Below, one piece after another: positions 4,793-39,511 of a stretch of 64,000 nucleotides of DNA. Made by a program: the position numbers and the translations under genes. Each line of letters opens with the position of its first letter. Position 1 is the stretch's first letter. A model generated the notes under the pieces. That model searched no databases. It saw only the letters and a list, made by a program, of their open reading frames with translations, and was not told the DNA's origin. The stretch comes from a virus. Location of the stretch: the IMG/VR virus record IMGVR_UViG_3300037258_000514, positions 64,001-128,000 of that record, one strand, 5' to 3'.

Positions 4793-5425
4793 CTATCTCC
4801 CGACAAGTCGTAAAAATTCGTCTCTAACTTCAGGCTTTGTTAACATCTCACCGCGCAGTGCAGATGTGGTAGCTTCCGTTTCTGATTGATTAACACCGCG
4901 ACTCATCATGCAAGAATGGCGCGCTTTTACCACTACGCCAATACCAATAGGGTGACAGTACTCTTGAATAAAATCGGCAATGTTATTCGTTAAGCGTTCT
5001 TGAACTTGAAGTTTTTTACTAAACATATTTACAACACGAACAAGTTTAGAAAGACCCAAGATTTTGCGTTCAGGAATGTAAGCAATACTTACATTTCCCG
5101 AGAACTCGGCAAGGTGATGTTCGCAATGACTAGTAAACCTAATCTTTTGTACCGCAATCATCTGGTTATAGTTCTCAGCACCGTCATCAAACTGTCCATT
5201 GATAATGGATTGCATTTGCTCAGCTACGTATGTTGTACTGTATCCAGCCCCCCATTCTTTGCGCCAAGCGTTTAAAACACGCTCAGGTGTTTTTATCAAC
5301 CCCGGACGATCAGGATCATCACCAATGTAGCGAATAAGCGTGCGAATTGCCGCGATAACTTCCTGATGACTAGGCGGAGGGGCCGGCCACGATTGGTTCT
5401 CCGGTTTTTTCATACCAGAATCCAA
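4793..5425 (-). CDS. folE: GTP cyclohydrolase I
   Basis: TPERV, SHCEHHL, GLSKLVR, LQVQERLT, HSCMMSRGV motifs. Confidence 0.95.
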   Translation of the reverse strand: MDSGMKKPENQSWPAPPPSHQEVIAAIRTLIRYIGDDPDRPGLIKTPERVLNAWRKEWGAGYSTTYVAEQMQSIINGQFDDGAENYNQMIAVQKIRFTSHCEHHLAEFSGNVSIAYIPERKILGLSKLVRVVNMFSKKLQVQERLTNNIADFIQEYCHPIGIGVVVKARHSCMMSRGVNQSETEATTSALRGEMLTKPEVRDEFLRLVGR

Positions 5426-6026
5426 GCTCCTTTACTACGGCAATAGTACGCCTGATATCACCAGCATTAACAGCAACAATATCTAGCTTTGTATCGGGAA
5501 AACCATTCTCAACCAAACTTTGATGAATTTGTTTTGTAGTCCAATCGGGGTGAAGAATAACAGCTTTCCTGATTGCATTGAGAATACCACTGTTCTTACT
5601 TCTTTTTTCTGCCGTACCTTTTAACTCGCCTATCTGTTCTACTTTTTTAACCGGCGGAAGTGCCGTGTCTGTTTTAGTTTTTGGTGTGTTTGCTTGGTTT
5701 GGTTTCGATGATTGAATTCTGCCTGACGCGCTCGAATTAACTGTAAGGCCAGCAGTAGCCACATCAGCAGCATCACTAGGTGCATTTCCATGTATACTCA
5801 CAAAGCCTTCAGGTAAAGGCAGTAGTTGTGATCCGTTAATTGAACGAACACATAGATTATACCAATCACTAGCGGCTGTAGAAAGAGCTTTCCATTGCTC
5901 AAGTGGGCACTTAGATATACACGTAGCCAGTGATAGAATATAAGCTTGATCTCCCTGAAATGGCGTTTGATCTGTACCACCATTTCCATTCTTAGTAGTA
6001 GCTAAAATTTCTTCGAATACTGTCAT
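5370..6026 (-). CDS. hypothetical protein
   Basis: 218-aa ORF between queC and folE. Confidence 0.55.
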   Translation of the reverse strand: MTVFEEILATTKNGNGGTDQTPFQGDQAYILSLATCISKCPLEQWKALSTAASDWYNLCVRSINGSQLLPLPEGFVSIHGNAPSDAADVATAGLTVNSSASGRIQSSKPNQANTPKTKTDTALPPVKKVEQIGELKGTAEKRSKNSGILNAIRKAVILHPDWTTKQIHQSLVENGFPDTKLDIVAVNAGDIRRTIAVVKELGFWYEKTGEPIVAGPSA

Positions 6027-6736
6027 TTTGTTACCGTTTCCCCTTTCTTATAAAGCTTTCTTGAATCGTAGGAAAGAGGATCAGCTGCGTTGTTTTGATT
6101 AAAGGCCCACAATCGTTCTTGACATGAGCCACACACACCACAAGCTATATCTCCTCCTTTGTAACAAGTCCATGTTTTTTCGTAAGGAACATTCATCTTC
6201 AAGCCACGTTTAAGAATTTCAGCCTTGTCGATGTTAATAAAAGGGGCAACCACAGCGTGAGGCAACTCTCCGTGAGTTCCAAATCTAAAAGCATCGGATA
6301 GCGCTTCAACGAACTCTATTCTACAATCTTCATAGATAAAGTGATCGCCTGCGTGCGCTCCATAGTAAACAAAGTCAGCTTGATCTGCAATTGCTGCTGC
6401 CCATGCAATTGAAAGCATCATTGCATTGCGATTAGGTACAACGGTTAATCGCATGTTTTCCTCTGCATAGAAACCTTCAGGCATTGCAACGTTATCTGTA
6501 TCTGTTAATGATGAACCCTTTAATAGGGGAGCAACACTCTTTAAATCAATTACATCATGTTGTCCTCCAACAAGGCGCGCAATCTCAGCAGCACAAATAA
6601 GTTCACGAACGTGTTTTTGTCCGTAGTTAAAACTTATAAAGTGTTGCGTAACTCCTTCCTTATAGTCAGAGGATTGGATTGCATAAGCAAGAGTCGCTGA
6701 GTCCATGCCACCGCTTAAAATTGTCACTGCGCGCAA
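6023..6736 (-). CDS. queC: 7-cyano-7-deazaguanine synthase
   Basis: SGGMDS PP-loop, YGQKH, VPNRN, TWTCY...CGVCGSC. Confidence 0.95.
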   Translation of the reverse strand: MRAVTILSGGMDSATLAYAIQSSDYKEGVTQHFISFNYGQKHVRELICAAEIARLVGGQHDVIDLKSVAPLLKGSSLTDTDNVAMPEGFYAEENMRLTVVPNRNAMMLSIAWAAAIADQADFVYYGAHAGDHFIYEDCRIEFVEALSDAFRFGTHGELPHAVVAPFINIDKAEILKRGLKMNVPYEKTWTCYKGGDIACGVCGSCQERLWAFNQNNAADPLSYDSRKLYKKGETVTK

Positions 6737-20615: not shown

Positions 20616-20690
20616 TGGTAGGCGTAGAGAGAATCGAACTCCCGTAGGACGGTAATCGGCCCGTCTGCTCTGCCCCTGAGCTATACGCCT
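20616..20690 (-). tRNA. tRNA-Ile(GAT), atypical anticodon loop
   Basis: cloverleaf; 8-nt loop GCCGATTA lacking U33/R37. Confidence 0.75.
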
Positions 20691-24063: not shown

Positions 24064-24372
24064 GTGCCACGTATTCTGTTGACAGGGACGTGGCCTAACC
24101 CCGCTACTTAGCGAACTAAGCAGCAGCAGCTTGCGACATCCATGCGCCCTGAGGGATCATGAAAGGAGCAATCTGAGCAGTTTTGTCTGCATTTACAATT
24201 AGCTTCTCGTTACGGTGAGCAGCTATTTCCGGCGTCGCAAACAATCTACCTTACCTCCGTCGAATCTAATTCATCCCCGTAATTAGCGTCGAGAATGTTT
24301 AGTTGGTGGAGATGGCGGGGTACTGCCCCCCGCGTCCGTCGGTATAGCACATTGTTTGATATACGGCGCACT
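24064..24372 (-). ncRNA. ssrA: two-piece (circularly permuted) tmRNA
   Basis: acceptor piece ...GACGCGGGGGGCAGTACCCCGCCATCTCCACCA (ends 24304) precedes coding piece GGGGATGAATTAGATTCGAC (starts 24278); G3:U70; tag frame 24190-24116 ADKTAQIAPFMIPQGAWMSQAAAA*. Confidence 0.9.
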
Positions 24373-24375
24373 GTC

Positions 24376-24981
24376 TTAAAACTTTAATTTCCTACCTAAT
24401 TGCCAACCCTGTGTAAGATATAGTGCGGTTTCTTCTTTTGCAACAGCTTTTGACTTTTTCTCTTTTGTATTAAAGATCCAGTTTGTTCCAAATCTGTTAT
24501 TTTTGCTTCCCTGTTTTAACATACTCATTAATTCACACGAGCTTTGTTTATGTTTACTCCCCGTCCATTTTCTCTGACCGCGCAAGCTTGCACTCAATGC
24601 AAGTTGTCTGCGAACGTCTGTATTACTATCTAACCAGATACGTAATTTTACGTAAGCTCTTTTCCCTCCAAGAAGTCTATTAAATTTGTTTTGTTTCTCT
24701 ACCCACTCCCATCCGCCCATACCTCCGTTGTTAAGATTATAACATAACGGATTTTCTTTTTCTGCTTCAACAAGTCGAGCCTCGAGCGCAAACATATCTT
24801 CTGCATTGTCGAAATCTGCAAGCACTTCTTTACTAAAATTTACTATGCCATGCTTCTTTATTGCGTACCAGAAAAGTACTCCTGATCCTAAGTAACTATC
24901 ATCAGGCTTTTCTGTTTTATGCGCTCCGATGTAAAACTTGTTATTCACTTTACATGTCGTTTTATAAACTGTATAGTGCAT
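24376..24981 (-). CDS. GIY-YIG (Seg-like) homing endonuclease
   Basis: TVYKTT...FYIGAH...YLGSG...YNL..GG; directly upstream of tmRNA. Confidence 0.85.
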   Translation of the reverse strand: MHYTVYKTTCKVNNKFYIGAHKTEKPDDSYLGSGVLFWYAIKKHGIVNFSKEVLADFDNAEDMFALEARLVEAEKENPLCYNLNNGGMGGWEWVEKQNKFNRLLGGKRAYVKLRIWLDSNTDVRRQLALSASLRGQRKWTGSKHKQSSCELMSMLKQGSKNNRFGTNWIFNTKEKKSKAVAKEETALYLTQGWQLGRKLKF

Positions 24982-31342: not shown

Positions 31343-31533
31343 ATCGCGTCCTACTACTGTCATCGCTCGGCTACGTAGTAAGTAAAGAGGACAAAGCGAT
31401 AAAAGACCCTCACCGCGAAATCTTTACAAGGTTTCTACTCCGTTACAGGTAGCCTACCTCCACGACAGTTGCTATGAGCAAGGTTGAGTTCTCTGTAACT
31501 TAGGCTCAACGGGCGGCTCGGATTTGAACCGAG
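31343..31533 (-). ncRNA. structured non-coding stretch beginning with an orphan T arm
   Basis: CTCGG-TTCAAAT-CCGAG-CCGCCCG at 31533-31510, followed by several hairpins. Confidence 0.4.
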
Positions 31534-31620: not shown

Positions 31621-31726
31621 AAATTGTGCGGCAGAAGTAAACTAAATTACTTCTTCAACACTTTTACCAGTAGTTAATCCGACTGCGGGCGCTTAATAAT
31701 AACCCAATCATTGAGCCGCAAACTTC

Positions 31727-31778
31727 CGGGGTCTATCCTACTGCTGTCCTAGGTTCTCAGCGATTCGGTAAGACCCCG
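31727..31778 (-). ncRNA. small structured RNA with AGAACCTAGGA loop
   Basis: CGGGGTCT/AGACCCCG terminal stem, GCTG/CAGC inner stem. Confidence 0.5.
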
Positions 31779-31795
31779 TTTTTGTGTAATATCTA

Positions 31796-31895
31796 TTGTC
31801 GGGAACAAGCGCTAACAGTTAGCGGTATCGAAACCGCAATTGGCTTACGAGGCCAATTTTTATCCAAGAAGTAGCTGTTAACTACGCCACGACAA
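31796..31895 (-). ncRNA. Yrl-like Y RNA copy 1 (inside the tRNA array)
   Basis: TTGTC-GTGGCG...CTACTTC...CGCTTGTTCCC-GACAA scaffold. Confidence 0.75.
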
Positions 31896-31901
31896 AGAAA
31901 A

Positions 31902-31976
31902 TGGAGCGGGTAAAGGAACTCGAATCCTTGTGTCTTGGGTGGAAACCAAGCATACTAGCCGCTGTATGATACCCGC
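31902..31976 (-). tRNA. tRNA-Gly(TCC)
   Basis: cloverleaf, loop TT-TCC-AC, TCCA. Confidence 0.9.
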
Positions 31977-32033
31977 TTAAAATTTTATTTTCCTTCCCAT
32001 CAACCATCCTATTAACCAACCCCGCCTTAAAAC

Positions 32034-32255
32034 TTATCGCAAGAAGCTTGTAGGACTCATTGCTGCATACTTTAGCAAGAATGAAAGCAATCCTACCCAA
32101 AACATGTGCAAGCCAATTACATTGCATTTCATGTTAAGATCTGATGGTGGAGGTGTTGTTGGTCTGGCTGTGATTAAAAACATTACCAAACCAAGTAAAC
32201 ACACTAAAAGTGAAAGATAAATTTGCATTGTTGATCTCCTTTTATATTCGTCCAA
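32034..32255 (-). CDS. small membrane protein
   Basis: two hydrophobic helices; likely start MQIYL after AAGGAG. Confidence 0.55.
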   Translation of the reverse strand: MDEYKRRSTMQIYLSLLVCLLGLVMFLITARPTTPPPSDLNMKCNVIGLHMFWVGLLSFLLKYAAMSPTSFLR

Positions 32256-32394
32256 GCAAGAATAAGATCAGAACAATAATAAAAATTGTTCCTAATAGTC
32301 CTGATGGAGCGTAACCCCAGTTTTGACTGTGAGGCCATGATGGGAAAGCGCCAACGAGCAGTAAGATTAAAACGATTAGCAAGATTAAGCCCAT
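32242..32394 (-). CDS. DUF3309-family small membrane protein
   Basis: MGLILLIVLILLLVGAFPSWPHSQNWGYAPSGLLG...LLGRI (50 aa, below the ORF-track cutoff). Confidence 0.85.
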   Translation of the reverse strand: MGLILLIVLILLLVGAFPSWPHSQNWGYAPSGLLGTIFIIVLILFLLGRI

Positions 32395-32507
32395 AGTTGT
32401 CACCTCGCTTGATCGTAATATAAACCTAAGCCAGAAATCTGTTCAGTTTTATACACTTCGTACTCTTTGATGCTGTTTGGGAGAAAAACGTTTGATACAA
32501 AATTAAA

Positions 32508-32582
32508 TGGCAGGGGATCCGAGACTCGAACTCGGGTAAACGGTTTTGGAGACCGACGTAATGGCCGCTATACGAATCCCCT
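32508..32582 (-). tRNA. tRNA-Trp(CCA)
   Basis: cloverleaf, loop CT-CCA-AA, GCCA. Confidence 0.9.
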
Positions 32583-32587
32583 AAATT

Positions 32588-32719
32588 TATTCTGAGAGGC
32601 GCCAAAGCCTTGTCCGTTGTAGAATGCTCGTAACGACTAGGGGTTGCGCAGTCCCGTTCCGATAGTTTATACTGACACATTCTTGGTCAACCACTCGCCA
32701 CCTACCACCTCTCAGAATA
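32588..32719 (-). ncRNA. putative rod-like structured RNA
   Basis: TATTCTGAGAGG/CCTCTCAGAATA terminal stem; AGAATG/CATTCT inner stem; fills the Asp-Trp spacer. Confidence 0.55.
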
Positions 32720-32720
32720 T

Positions 32721-32797
32721 TGGCGGGCCGTACGGGATTCGAACCCGTGAATGTACGGTAGACAGCCGTATAGCTTAGACCGCTTGCCTAACGACCC
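32721..32797 (-). tRNA. tRNA-Asp(GTC)
   Basis: cloverleaf, loop CT-GTC-TA, GCCA. Confidence 0.85.
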
Positions 32798-32826
32798 CAA
32801 TATTACTCTATTCAGTTGTCAAAGAA

Positions 32827-33486
32827 TTACAACACCGCCGCCTGAACGGCTTGATGAGAATGCGTCTCTTTCTCATCGTTGAACTTTCGGCACTTACTAC
32901 ACCAAATTAGTTTATACCCAAATTTATAAAGACGATTTCCTACTGCAACGGCACTAACGCCCAACTTTTCTCCTACATATGTGTAGGAAGAATTCTTAAC
33001 CATTGTTACAAGCTCGTTAATCTCAGGCCATTCAATCTTCGTTCTTAACCGTAAACGAGCATGAATCTTATTATAAACGCCTTCAGTATGAAGCCTTTTA
33101 GTACGTAACGAAGCCTCTTGACGCGCTTTAACACTAGTAATTCTACACTTTCTCAACTGCATTGCTTTTTCTTCGCCATATTTAGCTATTGTATATAACC
33201 AAATATTTTTCTTTCCATTTGCTATAGCATCTGCAGTATTTTCTGCTGCAGTACCCCAATACAGATGATAAGGATTACTGCACTTCTCATTGTGACAGGC
33301 ATGACAGCAATGAATTTTTACTTCAAAAGGGATTGTAGTATCAACTATATATGCTAGTAGACCTCTACATTCACCTGAACTGCCTTCCTTTGGATTTCCT
33401 CCTCTTTCTACGCAAGGTGAGTCAAGTTTTAAATGAGATTGCCTTTCTTTCTTTGGACGTAGAATATATTCTTCTATATTAATCAT
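32827..33486 (-). CDS. His-Me-finger homing endonuclease, MIxIExYIL family, HTH-like C terminus
   Basis: CCHACHNEKCSNPYHLYWGTAAEN; KIEWP...SY..VG.KLGVS..AV. Confidence 0.8.
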   Translation of the reverse strand: MINIEEYILRPKKERQSHLKLDSPCVERGGNPKEGSSGECRGLLAYIVDTTIPFEVKIHCCHACHNEKCSNPYHLYWGTAAENTADAIANGKKNIWLYTIAKYGEEKAMQLRKCRITSVKARQEASLRTKRLHTEGVYNKIHARLRLRTKIEWPEINELVTMVKNSSYTYVGEKLGVSAVAVGNRLYKFGYKLIWCSKCRKFNDEKETHSHQAVQAAVL

Positions 33487-33520
33487 AAATACTTCAAGCC
33501 CCTGAGGGCGTCACAAACTT

Positions 33521-33597
33521 TGGCTGGCCACCCAGGATTCGAACCTGGAATCTTCGCGTTCAGAGCGCGCTGCGTTCGCCGGTTGCGCCAGTGGCCA
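33521..33597 (-). tRNA. tRNA-Gln(CTG)
   Basis: cloverleaf, loop CT-CTG-AA, GCCA. Confidence 0.9.
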
Positions 33598-33811
33598 ATT
33601 TACTAAACAAAATCTACTACGTTGTTATTTATACCGCCCTGCGGCGGTGCTGGATTCGTCTGTTCAACATTTGTATTCACAGGATTATCAACTCCCGGTA
33701 CAGGAAGTCCGTAAGGATTAATGTACGAAGTTCCTGTGTTTTGGTAGTACCATCCGAAGTTATTAAATCCCGGTGATGACATTAACGTCTCCTAAATGGC
33801 AGTTCTAATTT

Positions 33812-33887
33812 TGGTAGCCCGAGCAGGACTCGAACCTGCGCTATTCTGCTCCAAAGGCAGACGTCTTGGCCGCTAAACGATCGGGCT
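33812..33887 (-). tRNA. tRNA-Gln(TTG)
   Basis: cloverleaf, loop CT-TTG-GA, ACCA. Confidence 0.85.
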
Positions 33888-34505
33888 ATTAACTTTCTCT
33901 AACTTCTTTCCGGCATACATTCGTTGAATTTTTCCCAACTTCCAACCCTGTATTGTTGCTAGTGCTATAAGATTCTTTTCGATTCTAATATTCTTGTCTT
34001 CTTTGTTCATCCAAACTGTATCCGTAGCTTGGTTTCTACTTCCAACGCAAAGCTTACGTCCATTTGAAATCTTTGCTTTTAGTTCAGATGAAACTATGAA
34101 ACTAGGATGAAAACCTTCACGTCCTTCTTTCCAACCAAGAGTAACAAAAAGTTCTTTGTCATAAAGACAAATTAATCGTGTTAAGCCGTTGTAAGACATC
34201 CAAACTTTATCGGCTGTATTGCGTTTATCTCCGAAATTATTTGTGTATCCGTTTTCTACAGCATCAACACGATTATCTGTCGGTGTTCCCCAGTATAGAT
34301 GAACTTTGTTACTACATTTTTCATTGTGACACGCGTGACATAAGTAAATTTTATATCCCTTTGGGATAGAAGTGTTTAAGTAGTCAGCTAACATGCCTTT
34401 AAACTCAACTGAAAATCCCCCGCGTTCAATGCAGGGATCGTGCAATTTTAAATGAGAGCGTCTTTGCTCTCTTGACAACAAAATGTACTCTTCTATTTTT
34501 ATCAT
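33873..34505 (-). CDS. His-Me-finger homing endonuclease, MIxIExYIL family
   Basis: LCHACHNEKCSNKVHLYWGTPTDN; two W...GWK.G modules; stop lies inside tRNA-Gln(TTG). Confidence 0.8.
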   Translation of the reverse strand: MIKIEEYILLSREQRRSHLKLHDPCIERGGFSVEFKGMLADYLNTSIPKGYKIYLCHACHNEKCSNKVHLYWGTPTDNRVDAVENGYTNNFGDKRNTADKVWMSYNGLTRLICLYDKELFVTLGWKEGREGFHPSFIVSSELKAKISNGRKLCVGSRNQATDTVWMNKEDKNIRIEKNLIALATIQGWKLGKIQRMYAGKKLEKVNSPIV

Positions 34506-34694
34506 ACTTCCAATGCTATAGCTTGTCCGCAGCGCATACATAAAACAAAACTTGAATCTACATCAAATCCAGCATTTTGTCTTGCCACACGCGCCTCATT
34601 CCTAAGAATGATATGATCATCACCGCTTCTTGTGCAAACTCGCTCTGTTGTTATCTCTGCTTTGTGTCCAAGTACATTAATTGTCGGCATAAAC

Positions 34695-34769
34695 TGGTGG
34701 GGCTAACGGGAATCGAACCCGTATTTAAGCTGTGAAAGAGCTTTTACCTGACCGTTAGTAGATAGCCCC
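34695..34769 (-). tRNA. tRNA-Glu(TTC)
   Basis: cloverleaf, loop CT-TTC-AC, CCA. Confidence 0.9.
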
Positions 34770-34970
34770 TAAAAATCTTTACAACTTGAAATTGTGTTTT
34801 GAGTAGTTCTACAGCTCTTTTGTTTTTTGGCTTGTAAGCCACGCCGTCTGTGTATGAGCGTTATTCCCGTCAATCACCTGACAGCTCGGAGACGATGGGG
34901 TTGGTCTAAAACCGCGTTCACGTAAATATCGCGATATGACCATAACGGTCTCCCTTTGATTAGCTATTAA

Positions 34971-35000
34971 AGCCTATAATAATAGGCTAATTAATGTCAA
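34971..35000 (-). promoter_or_regulatory. sigma70-like promoter at the head of the tRNA array
   Basis: AAAGAAATGC-TTGACA-18 nt-TAGGCT; same upstream context as the promoter at 61927. Confidence 0.55.
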
Positions 35001-35019
35001 GCATTTCTTTTAAAAAATT

Positions 35020-35180
35020 TTATGTGTAGGCTTCAAACGTATCCGGTCCTAGGTGCTCCGAATAGTTTCCTTCTGATGAGAACTTCTTCGTATTACTTTA
35101 TTGGTAACACGGGCCACAGCTAACTCCCGTCTCATCCTCCCGTGGACAGACATCCCGTCTCTCGATGCCACTACACATAA
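35020..35180 (-). ncRNA. putative ~160-nt multibranch RNA with AGCACCTAGGA loop
   Basis: TTATGTGTAG/CTACACATAA terminal stem; TATTCGG/CCGGATA hairpin. Confidence 0.55.
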
Positions 35181-35182
35181 CT

Positions 35183-35845
35183 TTATGTCCACATTAACTT
35201 CATCTTGCCAACAGTCTCAGAAAAGGCTCCTGCCTTCTGTGTTAAGTCTAACTGCATTTGTACGATTACTTGATTATAATCGGTCCAGTTGGATTTAACT
35301 GCTGGTACATTCTGTAAACTAACAGGTACAAGATAAAGATCAGCATCTATTGCTACTGCCGTTGTAGAACTAATCTTCTTAACAAAATCAAATGTATGAA
35401 AAATTTGGATTTTGTGGGCGATATTCGGCATTAGCTTGCTTGCGATAGAAGCGAAGTTTACCCAACTTCCATCAGCTTTAGCAATCTGTAGAGTTAACGC
35501 AGCGGCGTTAATCTGAAAGCTTCGATTATACTTATATGCAGAACCGTCAGTTTCTTTTGCGCCTGTGAGAATTAAATCACTCTCTTCAGCCTGCGCGTCC
35601 GTTAAACTCGACGCACTTAATTCCATTTCGAAGCTGTGGCAAACTGCATGACTACCAGTAGGAATTGGCCGAGCCAGATACCACTCTGCTCCAGCATATT
35701 TCCCGGGCGTAACGCTACCAGATACGCTGAACACTGCGTAATCTAGTACAGGTTCCATTGCATATTCTTGCGGTACTCCATCACTTACGGAACCGCCAGC
35801 TTGTGCTTTCCATGCAGGGTAAAGAGGAACCCAATCTATTATCAT
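35183..35845 (-). CDS. hypothetical beta-rich protein
   Basis: likely start MIIDWVP after GGAGG; the ORF-track extension lies in a structured RNA. Confidence 0.6.
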   Translation of the reverse strand: MIIDWVPLYPAWKAQAGGSVSDGVPQEYAMEPVLDYAVFSVSGSVTPGKYAGAEWYLARPIPTGSHAVCHSFEMELSASSLTDAQAEESDLILTGAKETDGSAYKYNRSFQINAAALTLQIAKADGSWVNFASIASKLMPNIAHKIQIFHTFDFVKKISSTTAVAIDADLYLVPVSLQNVPAVKSNWTDYNQVIVQMQLDLTQKAGAFSETVGKMKLMWT

Positions 35846-35866
35846 ATATTCCCCTCCATAAAAATA

Positions 35867-35990
35867 CTCAGGTGTGAGTCGATCAATTTCTTGATCGGCT
35901 TGGGCGGGTATTGTGGGAGAATGCAACCGTTCCTCCCACAATTTTTATGGCTTCCCAGCTAGCCTTGCATTTAGCTATCTCACACCCGAA
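35867..35990 (-). ncRNA. putative multibranch RNA immediately downstream of Ro60
   Basis: TTCGGGTGTGAG/CTCACACCTGAG terminal stem; TTGTGGGAG/CTCCCACAA and CGATCAA/TTGATCG inner stems. Confidence 0.55.
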
Positions 35991-35994
35991 CTTG

Positions 35995-37332
35995 TTATTG
36001 AATCTTCTCTAGTTCACGAATGAAATTGATGCAAGCTTCACTCCATCCGTCAATGTGTGTCCACTCTCTGTAACCAAGGCCGTTCTTGTTAGAAGCAACG
36101 TTAATTACATACCCTTTACCTTTGGGTGAAGCAATCCCATCGTGGGCTTGTTCATCAGTGAACACAATGATACGATCATAGCCTTCTCTTGAATTAATGT
36201 GCTGTAAAGCTCGTTCAAGATAAGTTGAACCGTGGGGCAAGCTGTTTACGATCGCATCACGTAGAGCAAATCCTCTACGAGCAGGTACTAGCACGCATTG
36301 AGAGCTGAATGTGTAGACAACACAATCAGAACAAATTTCACGCGCTAGCATTGCCACTCCACAGGCAGCATCCATTCTAGTGATCTCAGACTTTCCTGAG
36401 ATTTGCGCTTCCATTGAACCGGATACGTCTATTAATAGAATAGTCTTACCTGTAAGCTTTTCCTGCTCCTTGAGACACTTCATCATACCTGCTTCAAGTT
36501 CTTGCTCAAGTTTCGGAGCATAACGAGCAGCGGCGATGAAGCGGAACGGAAGTACGCGTTCGGTCTTGATGTTTAGCAACGCCTTACGAATATTGGAAAT
36601 GTCGACTCCTGCTTCTTGCATGTTACGCAAGTTGCGAAGGAGAGCCAAAGCGCCCAGCTGATTTTCTGCGAGCTTTGATTCCCATACTGCTTTCTTCTGT
36701 TCCTCTGTCTTCTTTTCCTCTCCTGCCGACAAGGCTACTTCCCAAGTCGAAGCAGGCGGGAGAGTTCCATTAACTAACTGTTTCCAAACTGCTTCTTGCT
36801 CTTCGTCTTTCGGCTTTGCGTGCGACAGGAACAAAACATCACGAAGCTTTACTGCATTGTCTTGGTTGTACTTCGCCAAGTCATAGGCAGAAAACTTATT
36901 GAAAGCCTTTGCAAGACCTTTTTTCACTTGAGCAGAAAGTGTTTTCTTTCCCGGTTGATCTGCCCAGTAGAGTGCAAGGAACTCTGCAAGTTCATCAGCA
37001 CGTTGAATTACACGTGCAAGTGTGTCAGCAACGAGACTACCATCAACATCTTTTCTCTTTGCCAACGAACGGACAAGGAAAAGAGGCATGTGACGAAGCT
37101 TCTGTTGTTCGCGACATTCGATTGCCAACTGTGCAACTTTGTTGGAATCAACATGCTTTGCCGCTTCGAGAACTTGCTCAGAGATCGTCTTACCATCAAC
37201 ATAAAACTGATCTTCAAATAACATCGTTGCAAGAGTTAAACGACGAAGCTGAAGTTCAGGCGAAATCTGAACCGCCTTTGCTCCTTCGTGTGTAAAAATT
37301 GGGTTGGATAGTACGGCTGTGTTTGTACGCAT
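35995..37332 (-). CDS. rsr: Ro60 / TROVE + vWA Y-RNA-binding protein
   Basis: THEGAKA, LFEDQFY, IQRADEL, LAKYN...VKLRDVLFLSHAKP, TWEVALS, ALLRNLRN, LPFRF, DVSGSM MIDAS, FTDEQ. Confidence 0.95.
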   Translation of the reverse strand: MRTNTAVLSNPIFTHEGAKAVQISPELQLRRLTLATMLFEDQFYVDGKTISEQVLEAAKHVDSNKVAQLAIECREQQKLRHMPLFLVRSLAKRKDVDGSLVADTLARVIQRADELAEFLALYWADQPGKKTLSAQVKKGLAKAFNKFSAYDLAKYNQDNAVKLRDVLFLSHAKPKDEEQEAVWKQLVNGTLPPASTWEVALSAGEEKKTEEQKKAVWESKLAENQLGALALLRNLRNMQEAGVDISNIRKALLNIKTERVLPFRFIAAARYAPKLEQELEAGMMKCLKEQEKLTGKTILLIDVSGSMEAQISGKSEITRMDAACGVAMLAREICSDCVVYTFSSQCVLVPARRGFALRDAIVNSLPHGSTYLERALQHINSREGYDRIIVFTDEQAHDGIASPKGKGYVINVASNKNGLGYREWTHIDGWSEACINFIRELEKIQ

Positions 37333-37373
37333 TTGTTGCCTCCGCCAGAGTCTAGTTGACTCGGAAATTTAAT

Positions 37374-37474
37374 CTACCGGGAACACTCGAGCAACGTAGC
37401 GTTTTAAAGTCCGCAACGACCCACATGGTATGAGGTTATTAGCCTCGAAGTAATGCTACTCTACGCCACGGCAG
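37374..37474 (-). ncRNA. Yrl-like Y RNA copy 2
   Basis: CTGCC-GTGGCG...TTACTTC...CGAGTGTTCCC-GGTAG. Confidence 0.8.
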
Positions 37475-37478
37475 TTAG

Positions 37479-37814
37479 TTACTCGTAAATACCTAAAACC
37501 TCTTCTTCACGCATCATTAATAGCTTTTCGCCATCGACTTCAATATCTACACCTGAATACGGTCCGAAAAGAACTGTCTCACCGACCTGAATATCAAGTG
37601 GAAACAATTCTCCATGTTCGTTCTTCTTTCCTCGTCCTACAGCTAATACTGTTCCCTTTAGTGGCTTATCTTGAGCTGCATCAGGAATAAACAACCCACT
37701 ATCTGTCTTTGTTTTGGCTTCATGTCGTCGAACGGTAAGACGATCGTGTAGCGGTTTAAACTTTTTTACTGCAAAAGCTGCTTTCTTTTCTTCCTGCATT
37801 GCTGTACTAGGCAT
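37479..37814 (-). CDS. groES: co-chaperonin GroES
   Basis: KPLHDR, SGLFIPD, GTVLAVG.G, GETVLF..YSG, MREEEVLG. Confidence 0.95.
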   Translation of the reverse strand: MPSTAMQEEKKAAFAVKKFKPLHDRLTVRRHEAKTKTDSGLFIPDAAQDKPLKGTVLAVGRGKKNEHGELFPLDIQVGETVLFGPYSGVDIEVDGEKLLMMREEEVLGIYE

Positions 37815-37841
37815 TCTATCCCTCTCAGGAGTTTTAAAAAA

Positions 37842-37993
37842 TTAGCTTCGGGAACAAGCGATTCAAGTGTTTTTAGCGTGCTACCATTACACCACCGGCC
37901 AAGTCTATTCGTTATTGGTTGGCCAGCAAGGACTCGAACCTTGACCTCTTCCTCTCAAGGGAAGTAACTCAAATCATAACGCCACGAAGCTAA
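37842..37993 (-). ncRNA. YrlA-type Y RNA copy 3 with permuted tRNA domain
   Basis: scaffold plus anticodon-like arm, T arm GGTTCGAGTCC, acceptor stem and D arm, in permuted order. Confidence 0.9.
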
Positions 37994-37999
37994 ATTCTA

Positions 38000-38094
38000 T
38001 CCGCGGGGAATATGCGACTTAGGATAGCCCATACCAATAGGGCAGTTCCCCGATTACACGGTGAAGAAGTAACCCAAATCTATCGCCACGCAGA
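38000..38094 (-). ncRNA. Yrl-like Y RNA copy 4
   Basis: TCTGC-GTGGCG...GTTACTTC...CGCATATTCCCC-GCGGA. Confidence 0.8.
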
Positions 38095-38109
38095 CTTAAA
38101 CTTTAAATC

Positions 38110-38315
38110 GTTCCAGGGAATAGTCGAATCTGGTCGATGTTACCTTTAGGGCTTACTTCATTCGGGTTTCAGTTATTTACTCCCCTACGTGTTTTAGCCT
38201 TATATCTCACATCTAACGGATTTGAAAAGGACGCTTAGCCTTTGTTCAGAAACGCTGTTTTGTTTCTGCTACAGCTGCTAGGTATGAAGTAGCCAGCTTC
38301 TGTCGCCACTGAAAC
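38110..38315 (-). ncRNA. Yrl-like Y RNA copy 5 with ~150-nt insert
   Basis: GTTTCA-GTGGCG...CTACTTC...CGACTATTCCC-TGGAAC. Confidence 0.75.
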
Positions 38316-38319
38316 AAAC

Positions 38320-39138
38320 TTAATCCAAAAACATTGAAACAGTTCCAAAAATTGCGCCTTCTTTGTTTAGCAAAACCTTGTGCCAACCATTAAGGAAGAT
38401 CGTTTTGTGATCTGCGTGCTTTACGCTTCCTCTTGCGTATACAGTTGCATTACGCTTCATCTGGTTAAAACCGCGCTGCTGATGCGGTTCAAGTCTTTCG
38501 TATTCAGCAGGCGAAATAACTGCCTCACCGCGAACGTAAACTGTGTCACCACCAAATCTGTAAAGCTGTTCGCACATGTGCGGTTTGCTTCCACGCCCGC
38601 GACTGATCGGTTCGTTTTTCAAGATTGGATTCTTCCAATCACTTTTAGCAAGAACAAAATTTGGATCAGGAATGAAAAACCATTCACCCTGGCGAAGCCT
38701 CGCAGCATTGCGACGACGATCACGATGACGTGCGCTTAATCCTTGTTCTGCTTCACGTACATCTGTTGGTTTCATTGACTGCTTAGCATCACGAACAGTT
38801 GTTGCATTTCCATCAATTCCGGAAATGAACCAATGCCGTTCATCATGTCCAAGCAACATTCGCGTTACGGATTCACCAAGTTTTTGTCCTACACGATTGA
38901 ACGTAGGAGTTGCTGCCATCAAAACCATGTGACGTTCTTTTGGAACAAGATTTAAGACGTTGAATCTTACATCTGCTCCCTTTTCAACAGCCAACTCAAA
39001 ATGTTCACCTTTCCTATCGTTTACAATGTTGATAAGAAAAGGTGTTGTCCTTCTGTTCCATGGATTGGTACGTAACTCAGACAGCTTGAGTCGCGCTCCC
39101 ATCTTCTCAAATGACCGTTCTAGTGTTTGTAGTTCCAT
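38320..39138 (-). CDS. hypothetical protein embedded in the Y-RNA cluster
   Basis: LGHDERHWF, RQGEWFFIP, GRGSKPH, VYARG.V.H.DH motifs. Confidence 0.7.
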   Translation of the reverse strand: MELQTLERSFEKMGARLKLSELRTNPWNRRTTPFLINIVNDRKGEHFELAVEKGADVRFNVLNLVPKERHMVLMAATPTFNRVGQKLGESVTRMLLGHDERHWFISGIDGNATTVRDAKQSMKPTDVREAEQGLSARHRDRRRNAARLRQGEWFFIPDPNFVLAKSDWKNPILKNEPISRGRGSKPHMCEQLYRFGGDTVYVRGEAVISPAEYERLEPHQQRGFNQMKRNATVYARGSVKHADHKTIFLNGWHKVLLNKEGAIFGTVSMFLD

Positions 39139-39152
39139 TTTTGTATAATCTC

Positions 39153-39219
39153 CCGGGGAACAAACGACTAAAGGTATATTTTCTCCAATTGAGAAGTAAC
39201 CCTTAGTCTACGCCACCGG
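39153..39219 (-). ncRNA. Yrl-like Y RNA copy 6 (minimal)
   Basis: CCG-GTGGCG-TAGACTAAGG-GTTACTTC...CCTTTAGT-CGTTTGTTCCC-CGG. Confidence 0.8.
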
Positions 39220-39511
39220 TAAATTATCGAGCAGTCTGGTCTCGTTGTGCCTATAAATATACCAAAACTTAGCTCTTACCAGTTTGCGCATATCGTTGGT
39301 TAGTGATAAGTACGTTGAGTGGTGGTGCAGTATTACTGAAGGGATTGTGTCCTCCTGTGTGATCTTTATCACGCAGGCAAGGACGCTTCGAGAAATCCCA
39401 GCACTTATACATAACGCCACACGTTTCTCTAACTGTAAGTTCTTCGTTCTGTGCGTTAATAACGGCTAGCATTTTACGTCCTCCTTTTAAATTACCAGTG
39501 ACACTACTGGT

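What the first reader, a model, noticed from the sequence alone, without database searches (positions are those of the whole stretch)
31796..39219. Phage Ro60 with six Y RNAs sharing one scaffold but carrying different payloads
Seen: six loci (31796, 37374, 37842, 38000, 38110, 39153) fit stem1-GTGGCG-helix2-YTACTTC-[insert]-helix2'-CG(N3-4)TTCCC-stem1'. Stem sequences differ yet stay complementary (e.g. GTTAACAG/CTGTTAGC, GACTAAGG/CTTTAGTC, GATTTGGG/CCTAAGTC). Inserts range from one tiny hairpin to a whole permuted tRNA to about 150 nt. Five copies lie upstream of the TROVE gene behind one promoter, interleaved with groES and an unknown protein; one has moved into the tRNA array. Known: bacterial Ro60 binds Y/Yrl RNAs whose distal module tethers effectors such as PNPase, and some phages carry Ro60 with Yrl RNA. 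Inference: a modular RNP platform in which one protein chassis displays interchangeable RNA adaptors or decoys, plausibly for anti-defence. This is the best candidate for an undescribed system in the window.
Basis: partly seen in the sequence, partly recalled or inferred. Interest (0 to 1): 0.92.

Follow-up and report, generated by a model that had tools for sequence, protein, structure and literature searches.

The report
Phage Ro60 with six Y RNAs
An uncultivated large phage encodes the ring-shaped RNA-binding protein Ro60 and six small RNAs that share one conserved "handle" but carry different bodies. The same handle lies directly beside this Ro60 type in every complete hit locus checked in other phages and in some bacteria, so it is a real, largely undescribed extension of the known Ro60-Y RNA particle.

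Summary
It finds nothing else at E<=1.

All six lie on the minus strand and share this layout: terminal stem, bulged U, two G-C pairs, internal loop, helix 2, YUACUUC, cargo, helix 2', G-N4-UUCC, terminal stem. Both helices covary strongly.

In 80 viral loci pulled out by the 5' motif alone, 43 had model hits. Of these, 41 have a Ro60 gene directly adjacent on the same strand; the other two are stubs of 1.2-1.4 kb. None of the 37 loci without hits has Ro60. Arrays of 2-8 are common in phages, and one bacterial locus has 14.

The handle carries the two marks published for YrlA (a GNCGAA-like motif and YUAY). Only Yd has the permuted tRNA-like body, and Rfam's YrlA model misses all six. Yf instead carries a tRNA-Thr-like anticodon arm plus T arm.

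The gene between Ya and Yb belongs to an uncharacterised family that sits next to Ro60 in many Acidobacteriota.

Ro60 binding, discrete expression, the single promoter and an anti-defence role remain untested. This scan has noted similar arrays in other genomes.

The parts
39149..39223 (-). Ya: minimal Y-like RNA. It consists of the handle plus one 5-bp V hairpin and an A-rich tail (17-nt cargo). The terminal stem can extend to 39145-39227.
   Evidence: R1 65.9 bits; R2 55.8 bits, E 1.6e-13; the MFE fold gives the scaffold, z -3.4. The 3' strand of the terminal stem (39156-39145) covers the GGGAG ribosome-binding site (39154-39150) of the next ORF (read).
38320..39138 (-). orf272: a conserved protein of unknown function that sits between Ya and Yb.
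   Evidence: No Pfam, PHROG or NCBIfam hit. More than 1000 homologues in at least 585 species genomes. AF2 pLDDT 89 with no clear PDB match. Ro60 lies within 7 kb in 21 of 80 genome loci.
38105..38320 (-). Yb: handle with a 152-nt multi-hairpin cargo. YUACUUC can pair with a downstream GAAGUAAG.
   Evidence: Descriptor: terminal stem 11/12, helix 2 7/8. R2 35 bits, E 1.1e-7 at 38109-38316. R1 misses it. Long elements lie at the same position directly after orf272 homologues in bacterial loci.
37999..38095 (-). Yc: handle plus two hairpins (37-nt cargo). It starts 9 nt after Yb.
   Evidence: R1 30.6 bits; R2 37.1 bits, E 2.8e-8; the MFE fold gives the scaffold.
37843..37992 (-). Yd: YrlA-type element. 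It consists of the handle, a V hairpin, a T arm, a closed acceptor stem with encoded ACCA, and a D arm (a permuted tRNA-like body). It is followed by a U-run.
   Evidence: R2 55.7 bits, E 1.7e-13. Rfam tRNA 26.9 bits, below the cut-off, at 37919-37976. MFE fold. The cargo resembles phage tRNA-Gln(CTG): score 42, reached by 0 of 200 shuffles.
37479..37814 (-). groES (Cpn10), 111 aa, between Yd and Ye.
   Evidence: Pfam Cpn10 E 5e-29; NCBIfam GroES hits.
37372..37476 (-). Ye: handle plus three small hairpins (49-nt cargo). The first has a 7-nt loop, CUAAUAA. It ends 39 nt before the Ro60 start codon.
   Evidence: R1 26.4 bits; R2 37 bits, E 3.2e-8; fold.
35995..37332 (-). Ro60 (TROVE + vWA), 445 aa.
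   Evidence: Pfam TROVE 7e-11 and vWA_Ro60 2e-8. Full-length match to phiLo Ro60 9KOP/9L5Y, E 3.8e-26. 44-60% identical to Ro60 of phages and Acidobacteriota that carry the same RNA handle.
31794..31897 (-). Yf: handle plus a 7-bp hairpin with loop CUCGUAA and a T-arm-like hairpin. It lies inside the tRNA array, 5 nt after tRNA-Gly and 4.1 kb downstream of Ro60.
   Evidence: R1 44.9 bits; R2 59.5 bits, E 1.5e-14; fold z -2.35. The cargo is colinear with the anticodon arm and T arm of phage tRNA-Thr(GGT): score 29, reached by 1 of 200 shuffles.

Best explanation
The six elements are genes for Y-RNA-like noncoding RNAs that partner the phage's own Ro60. Each RNA closes its 5' and 3' ends into a terminal stem. 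That stem continues, past a conserved bulged U and two G-C pairs, into an internal loop (5' GGYG-WAG, 3' G-N4-UU) and a second helix ending in YUACUUC. This handle is the Ro60-binding module (inferred). The distal cargo differs between copies: almost nothing in Ya, hairpins in Yc and Ye, an anticodon-arm plus T-arm piece in Yf, a permuted T/acceptor/D tRNA mimic in Yd, and a 150-nt domain in Yb. Five elements are probably cut out of the transcript that also carries orf272, groES and Ro60, and Yf out of the tRNA transcript, by tRNA-type processing (inferred from spacers of under 10 nt). One Ro60 ring would then form several distinct particles. By analogy with Deinococcus and Salmonella Rsr-Y RNA-PNPase and with phiLo Ro60-Yrl-PNPase, the cargo gates the ring or couples it to host RNA enzymes, most likely in tRNA and RNA surveillance, repair or turnover during infection. 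Shown here: the family, its structure and its strict linkage to Ro60. Inferred: binding, processing and function.
For: Six hits and no others with a model trained on foreign sequences. Covariation in both helices: 87% of cells paired against 56% when shuffled and 34-49% when slid, with a covariation score of 0.77 against 0.20 (the same on A3). The two extra pairs covary without a mismatch: GC 120 and AU 7; GC 125, AU 1 and GU 1. Linkage to Ro60: 41 of 43 viral loci with hits have Ro60 adjacent on the same strand, and 0 of 37 loci without hits do. In bacterial loci, 14 of 15 with hits have Ro60 at 50% identity or more. Arrays lie in front of Ro60 in CcrColossus, Brevundimonas Gurke and Xanthomonas Sopo. 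The handle contains the GNCGAA-like motif and the YUAY that Chen et al. 2014 (PMC4201824) describe for Rsr-bound YrlA/YrlB. The nearest solved protein, phiLo Ro60, binds two upstream Yrl RNAs and host PNPase in vitro (PMC12135203). Cargo lengths fall into recurring classes: 10-19, 30-69 and 70-89 nt.
Against: There is no expression, processing or binding data for this phage or any close relative. Rfam YrlA (RF02553) does not score any of the six. The 5' motif is GGCG followed by UA, AC, AU or UU, not a strict GNCGAA. Ya overlaps a ribosome-binding site and Ye sits in the Ro60 leader, so some copies could act in cis. No promoter or terminator was found by consensus scan. Cargo sequences other than Yd and Yf match nothing. 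Evidence that Yb's cargo is conserved is weak.
Confidence: 0.72

Rival explanations
1. The six RNAs do bind Ro60, but the cargo differences have no separate functions. The array would be a set of duplicates that together set the dose of a Ro60 gate or sponge, and the inserts would be drift or leftovers of tRNA recombination.
For: Array size varies freely between relatives, from 1 to 14. Most cargo sequences have no detectable homologue. Minimal elements with almost no cargo are the commonest class and score best.
Against: Cargo lengths are trimodal, not continuous, and the tRNA-like class keeps T and D loops across distant phages. Each locus usually mixes classes rather than repeating one.
Confidence: 0.15
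2. The elements act mainly in cis, as leader, punctuation or stability structures of the polycistronic transcript. Examples would be Ro60 feedback on translation of orf272 through Ya, or processing signals between genes.
For: Ya's 3' stem strand covers the GGGAG site 11 nt before the orf272 start. Ye lies in the 5' leader of Ro60. The elements sit in every intergenic gap of the operon.
Against: Yf lies in a tRNA array with no ORF to regulate. In 41 other viral loci the arrays are tandem RNA-only blocks with spacers of a few bases. In bacterial loci the last element ends 60-80 nt before the orf272 homologue. Published YrlA/YrlB and Yrl1/2 are free RNAs.
Confidence: 0.08
3. The handle is recognised by a protein other than Ro60, either the orf272 protein or a host factor, and Ro60 is only a neighbour.
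For: orf272 homologues sit inside Y arrays in Acidobacteriota. No binding data exist.
Against: None of the 41 viral Ro60 loci with arrays has an orf272 homologue. In 58 of 80 orf272 loci I found neither Ro60 nor the handle. The handle carries the motif that Rsr protects in Yrn1 (PMC4201824).
Confidence: 0.05

Closest known systems
Bacterial Rsr (Ro60) with YrlA/YrlB (Salmonella rsr-yrlBA-rtcBA, M. smegmatis; Chen et al. 2014, PMC4201824; Rfam RF02553)
   Same: The RNAs are encoded beside Ro60 on the same strand and are probably processed from one precursor. The 5' and 3' ends pair. There is a GNCG-A/U-rich motif near the 5' end and YUAY at the start of the V loop. One RNA (Yd) has T arm, closed acceptor and D arm in the permuted order. 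A second type lacks the full tRNA mimic.
   Different: There are six RNAs rather than two, and at least four cargo types, including a non-permuted anticodon-arm plus T-arm piece and a 150-nt domain. RF02553 scores none of them. The Ro60 is far below the NCBIfam Rsr cut-off (35.8 against 900 bits). The operon holds orf272 and groES instead of rtcBA.
Thermus phage phiLo Ro60 with Yrl1 and Yrl2 (PMC12135203; PDB 9KOP, 9L5Y)
   Same: Both are phage-encoded Ro60 proteins, and phiLo Ro60 is the closest solved relative (E 3.8e-26 over the full length). In both, Y-like RNAs lie upstream of the gene. For phiLo, binding to the RNAs and to host PNPase was shown in vitro.
   Different: phiLo has two RNAs, defined by a CGAA motif and RNAfold. 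No shared covarying handle, array or cargo classes were described. I could not fetch the phiLo locus to test my model on it.
Deinococcus radiodurans Rsr-Yrn1-PNPase (RYPER), as summarised in PMC4201824
   Same: The working model is the same: a Y RNA whose stem binds Ro60 and whose distal part tethers an exoribonuclease and gates the ring.
   Different: Yrn1 differs in its arrangement of tRNA-like parts and appears to have evolved independently. No PNPase link has been tested here.
Metazoan Y RNA sets (human Y1, Y3, Y4, Y5)
   Same: Several paralogous RNAs share a bulged Ro60-binding stem formed by the two ends and differ in the distal loop.
   Different: There is no sequence relation. Those genes are dispersed or clustered Pol III genes, not a co-transcribed array. 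No tRNA-like cargo is known from my own knowledge.

Membership tests
Ro60 / TROVE protein | TROVE (HEAT-repeat ring) domain followed by a Ro60-type vWA domain | tested here: met
   Pfam TROVE 42.3 bits (cut-off 23) and vWA_Ro60 34.6 bits (cut-off 27.7). Full-length alignment to phiLo Ro60 9KOP, E 3.8e-26.
Ro60 / TROVE protein | NCBIfam equivalog RNA-bind_Rsr (NF041674) at its cut-off | tested here: not met
   35.8 bits against a cut-off of 900. It is a divergent clade, not an Rsr equivalog.
Y RNA in the broad sense (Ro60 partner RNA) | 5' and 3' ends pair into a long stem that holds a conserved bulged or looped protein-binding site | tested here: met
   Covariation in the terminal stem and helix 2. 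Bulged U plus two covarying pairs. MFE folds.
Y RNA in the broad sense (Ro60 partner RNA) | Physically bound by Ro60 | not testable with these tools
   Only genomic linkage is available: 41 of 43 viral loci and 14 of 15 bacterial loci with hits have Ro60 adjacent.
YrlA (Chen et al. 2014; Rfam RF02553) | Encoded within about 4 kb of Ro60 on the same strand | tested here: met
   Ya to Ye lie 40-1900 nt upstream. Yf lies 4.1 kb downstream on the same strand.
YrlA (Chen et al. 2014; Rfam RF02553) | GNCGAAN0-1G motif near the 5' end | tested here: inconclusive
   The six have GGCGUAG, GGCGACAG, GGCGAUAG or GGCGUUAUG. The wider family is mostly GGUGAAG or GGCGUAG. GNCG is kept, but AA is not strict.
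YrlA (Chen et al. 2014; Rfam RF02553) | YUAY at the start of the V loop | tested here: met
   YUAC occurs in all six and in nearly all relatives.
YrlA (Chen et al. 2014; Rfam RF02553) | tRNA-like domain: T arm, closed acceptor stem, D arm | tested here: not met
   It is met by Yd only. Ya, Yb, Yc and Ye lack it. Yf has an anticodon-arm plus T-arm piece in normal tRNA order.
YrlA (Chen et al. 2014; Rfam RF02553) | Score at or above the Rfam gathering threshold (69 bits) | tested here: not met
   There is no hit on any of the six, even at E<=10.

The most novel reading that the evidence does not exclude
The array is a programmable display set. One phage Ro60 chassis would present different RNA baits, each engaging a different host enzyme or decoying a different tRNA-directed defence nuclease: a tRNA acceptor/T/D half in Yd, an anticodon-arm/T-arm half in Yf, and unknown folds in Yb, Yc and Ye. 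The conserved orf272 protein, which is rich in invariant His, Asp, Glu and Cys, would be a new enzymatic partner of the particle.
Probability: 0.15. Interest if true: 0.85.

Novelty: new variant of a known kind. Interest (0 to 1): 0.62.

Why it matters
Ro60-Y RNA particles are known from animals, some bacteria and a few phages, always with one to four RNAs, and their function in microbes is still poorly understood. Here one covarying handle serves six RNAs in a phage, up to eight in known Caulobacter phages and fourteen in an acidobacterial locus, with recurring cargo classes. That gives a natural series for testing the idea that Y RNAs are modular tethers: the handle stays the same while the cargo is swapped. 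It also defines an RNA family that Rfam's YrlA model misses, and it points to an uncharacterised protein family as a frequent Ro60 neighbour. A preprint reports that the Ro60-like gp130 of phage Bas63 counters a defence system (PMC11482910). The particle's role in infection is therefore testable, but it is not established here.

Tried and rejected
- **Rfam.** No Y RNA or YrlA hit at the gathering threshold or at E<=10.
- **First alignment.** MAFFT on the six full-length elements misaligned the 5' half, so I seeded the model from short elements instead.
- **R1 and Yb.** R1 could not span Yb even with filters off. R2 could.
- **Mobile element with terminal inverted repeats.** Rejected. Stem sequences differ between copies while pairing is kept.
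- **CRISPR-like repeat-spacer array.** Rejected. The 'repeat' is split into two pairing halves.
- **Cargo as a copy of, or antisense to, other phage sequence.** blastn-short found nothing beyond T-arm matches.
- **Anticodon-loop mimicry as a general rule.** 7-nt loops of the form YU...R are enriched (11 of 24 against 14% in shuffles). Most of these are V loops sharing a UUGR motif, and in relatives the hairpin before the T arm usually has a tetraloop. I therefore keep this as a lead for Yf and Ye only.
- **orf272 fold.** Foldseek against PDB gave no match at E<=0.001. VIA-align wide gave a best Z of 3.6. The atlas returned only its own unnamed family. A PDB profile search gave nothing below E 0.2.
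- **orf272 as an obligate Ro60 partner.** Rejected. Only 21 of 80 genome loci have Ro60 within 7 kb. My first sample, 5 of 6, was biased towards close relatives.
- **The bacterial 107-aa neighbour as GroES.** No similarity.
- **Papers not held.** Sim et al. 2020 (Annu Rev Microbiol) and Burroughs and Aravind 2016 could not be read. I cannot exclude that they mention larger arrays or the orf272 family.
- **phiLo locus.** It was not among the listed phage hits, so it was not tested.


Full report
**What is in the window.** The window is bases 64001-128000 of a 175,952-bp IMG/VR virus record, 86% complete by CheckV. Around the finding every gene is on the minus strand. The region holds about 30 tRNA genes, a two-piece tmRNA and a CyVA-1 RNA. 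The ORF at 37332-35995 is a Ro60: Pfam TROVE and vWA_Ro60 both score above their cut-offs. Its best solved relative is Ro60 of Thermus phage phiLo, E 3.8e-26 over the full length. It is far from the bacterial Rsr equivalog model. Upstream lie groES (37814-37479) and a 272-aa ORF (39138-38320) with no family assignment.

**Checking the observation.**
It occurs nowhere else in the genome.
- A stricter descriptor that also demands the 3' motif and both helices recovers the same six, against one hit in 20 shuffled windows.
- I built covariance model R1 from 11 short elements. It scored five of the six at E<=1e-4 and found nothing else in the window or the whole genome.
- I then built R2 from 127 elements found in other IMG/VR contigs, with no sequence from this window. 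R2 finds exactly the six loci, including the long Yb, at E 1.5e-14 to 1.1e-7, and nothing else at E<=1 on either strand.
- Unconstrained folds give the scaffold for five of the six. For Yb they give the terminal stem plus an alternative pairing of YUACUUC.

**Anatomy of the handle.** The order is: terminal stem; a conserved bulged U; two pairs, G2-C4' and G3-C3'; an internal loop (5' Y-G-W-A-G, 3' G-N4-U-U); helix 2 of 8-10 bp; then YUACUUC.
- On 127 foreign elements, 87% of cells in the 17 modelled pairs are paired. The figure is 56% after shuffling and 34-49% when partners are slid by 1-3 columns. All 17 pairs show changes on both sides (the same picture on A3). These alignments were fitted to the model, so the slid control is the fairer comparison.
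- The two extra pairs, which were not in the model, covary without a single mismatch: GC 120 and AU 7; GC 125, AU 1 and GU 1.
- In most elements the UUC of YUACUUC opens a 'V' hairpin with a downstream GAA.

**Linkage to Ro60.** The phage collection shows arrays of this handle directly in front of Ro60 in three phages: Caulobacter phage CcrColossus (8 copies), Brevundimonas phage Gurke (6-7) and Xanthomonas phage Sopo (5-6). There are also copies near Ro60 in Ralstonia, Microcystis, Rhizobium and crAss-like phages.

A blind test gave a clean split. The 5' motif alone pulled more than 120 IMG/VR contigs.
- Of the 80 loci returned, 43 had R1 hits, 127 elements in all.
- Of those 43, 41 carry a Ro60 homologue immediately adjacent on the same strand. 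The other two are stubs of 1.2-1.4 kb.
- None of the 37 loci without hits has Ro60.

**Relation to published Y RNAs.** Chen et al. 2014 (PMC4201824) describe YrlA/YrlB as encoded beside rsr. These RNAs have a GNCGAAN0-1G motif near the 5' end that overlaps the Rsr-protected bases, and a YUAY that starts the V loop. YrlA also has a T arm, a closed acceptor stem and a D arm. The paper lists 22 phages, among them CcrColossus, and expects more RNAs to be found. The phiLo paper (PMC12135203) shows that a phage Ro60 binds two upstream Yrl RNAs and host PNPase.

The handle here has a GGCG-W-N motif and YUAC, so it is the same kind of module. Only Yd has the YrlA body. Rfam's YrlA model scores none of the six. 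I found no paper in the held library that describes arrays of more than two, a minimal class, or the handle as a covarying unit. Two relevant reviews were not available. Notes from this scan report similar arrays in other genomes and likewise found no published description. Those notes are leads, not evidence.

**The cargos.**
- **Ya** (17 nt): a V hairpin plus an A-rich tail. This minimal class is the commonest and best conserved.
- **Yc:** two hairpins.
- **Ye:** three small hairpins, the first with loop CUAAUAA.
- **Yd:** V hairpin, T arm, an 8-bp acceptor-like stem whose 3' strand is followed by ACCA, then a D arm. Its T/acceptor part resembles the phage's tRNA-Gln(CTG) (score 42, reached by 0 of 200 shuffles).
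- **Yf:** a 7-bp hairpin with loop CUCGUAA followed by a T-like hairpin. It is colinear with the anticodon arm and T arm of phage tRNA-Thr(GGT) (score 29, reached by 1 of 200 shuffles). It is therefore a tRNA piece in normal, not permuted, order.
- **Yb** (152 nt): several hairpins that match nothing.

Over 147 descriptor hits, cargo length is trimodal: 10-19, 30-69 and 70-89 nt, with a few longer. Classes therefore recur, although individual sequences do not.

**Operon context.** Spacers between Yb, Yc and Yd are 9 and 6 nt. Yf starts 5 nt after tRNA-Gly. This fits co-transcription followed by processing, but no promoter or terminator was found by consensus scan. By eye there is only a GATAAT 7 nt before Ya, and a U-run after Yd. 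Ya's 3' stem strand covers the GGGAG site of orf272, so a cis effect on that gene is possible.

**The orf272 family.**
- It has more than 1000 homologues in at least 585 species, mainly Acidobacteriota, Planctomycetota and Verrucomicrobiota.
- It has many invariant His, Asp, Glu and Cys residues, for example GHDERHWF.
- The AF2 model is confident (pLDDT 89), with no clear PDB match.
- Among 80 genome loci, 21 have Ro60 within 7 kb. Fifteen have R2 hits, and 14 of those have Ro60 at 50% identity or more.
- One MAG locus (L159) has 14 elements and a Ro60 60% identical to the phage's.
- In several of these loci a long element directly follows the orf272 homologue, as Yb does here.

The phage module therefore looks like a relative of an acidobacterial Y-array/orf265/Ro60 operon. 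orf272 is a frequent neighbour of Ro60, not an obligate one.

**Verdict.** The elements are real, and they are best read as Ro60 partner RNAs with a shared handle and diverse cargo. This is a new variant of the known Ro60-Y RNA system and is widespread rather than unique to this phage. Binding, expression and any role in anti-defence remain to be tested.

Noticed in passing
window 38320-39138 (-): orf272 belongs to a large uncharacterised family of about 265 aa, found in at least 585 species. It has invariant His/Asp/Glu/Cys motifs (GHDERHWF, RQGEWFF). The AF2 model is confident and has no clear PDB match. The family is often, but not always, encoded next to Ro60 and Y arrays.
   Followed up: partly
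L159:233-3509 (Candidatus Angelobacter MAG, DATDNH010000196.1): There are fourteen handle elements in one bacterial locus: thirteen in tandem upstream of the orf272 homologue and one after it. A Ro60 60% identical to the phage's lies at 5005-6300.
   Followed up: partly
G000:C1:63508-63786 (-), about 215-490 nt before the window start: The phage encodes a homologue (about 35% identity, E 1e-8) of the 107-110-aa protein that lies between the orf272 homologue and Ro60 in acidobacterial loci. Here it sits about 36 kb away from Ro60.
   Followed up: no
window 39145-39156 and 39150-39154 (-): The 3' strand of Ya's terminal stem contains the GGGAG ribosome-binding site of orf272 (ATG at 39138). Folding or Ro60 binding of Ya could therefore occlude translation. 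Bacterial relatives do not show this overlap.
   Followed up: partly
window 31633-31657 (-) and 31727-31778 (-): Two further structures lie between Yf and tRNA-Cys. One is a hairpin in which a UUUACUUCU (the YUACUUC motif) pairs with GAAGAAGUAA. The other is a long-range stem, CGGGGUCU...AGACCCCG. Neither has the rest of the handle.
   Followed up: no
window 24065-24420 (-): A two-piece (permuted) tmRNA gene: Rfam alpha_tmRNA 77.8 bits and tmRNA_permuted 76.4 bits. ARAGORN did not report it.
   Followed up: no
window 31343-31419 (-): A CyVA-1 RNA (Rfam RF02965, 53.1 bits, above the cut-off) lies inside the tRNA array, about 375 nt downstream of Yf.
   Followed up: no
window 20616-20690 (-): ARAGORN calls a tRNA with a four-base anticodon (cgat) and no assigned amino acid. 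Rfam's tRNA model does not list it.
   Followed up: no
window 32827-33486 (-) and 33873-34541 (-): Two HNH-endonuclease-like ORFs (PHROG hits at E 1e-8 and 4e-6) are interspersed among the tRNA genes.
   Followed up: no
L014:4700-5920 (Caulobacter phage CcrColossus, JX100810.1): The 'tRNA-Gln' annotated upstream of the TROVE gene lies inside one of eight handle elements. The similar 'tRNA-Ser' in Brevundimonas phage Gurke also lies inside an element. These are probably Y RNA bodies, not tRNAs.
   Followed up: partly
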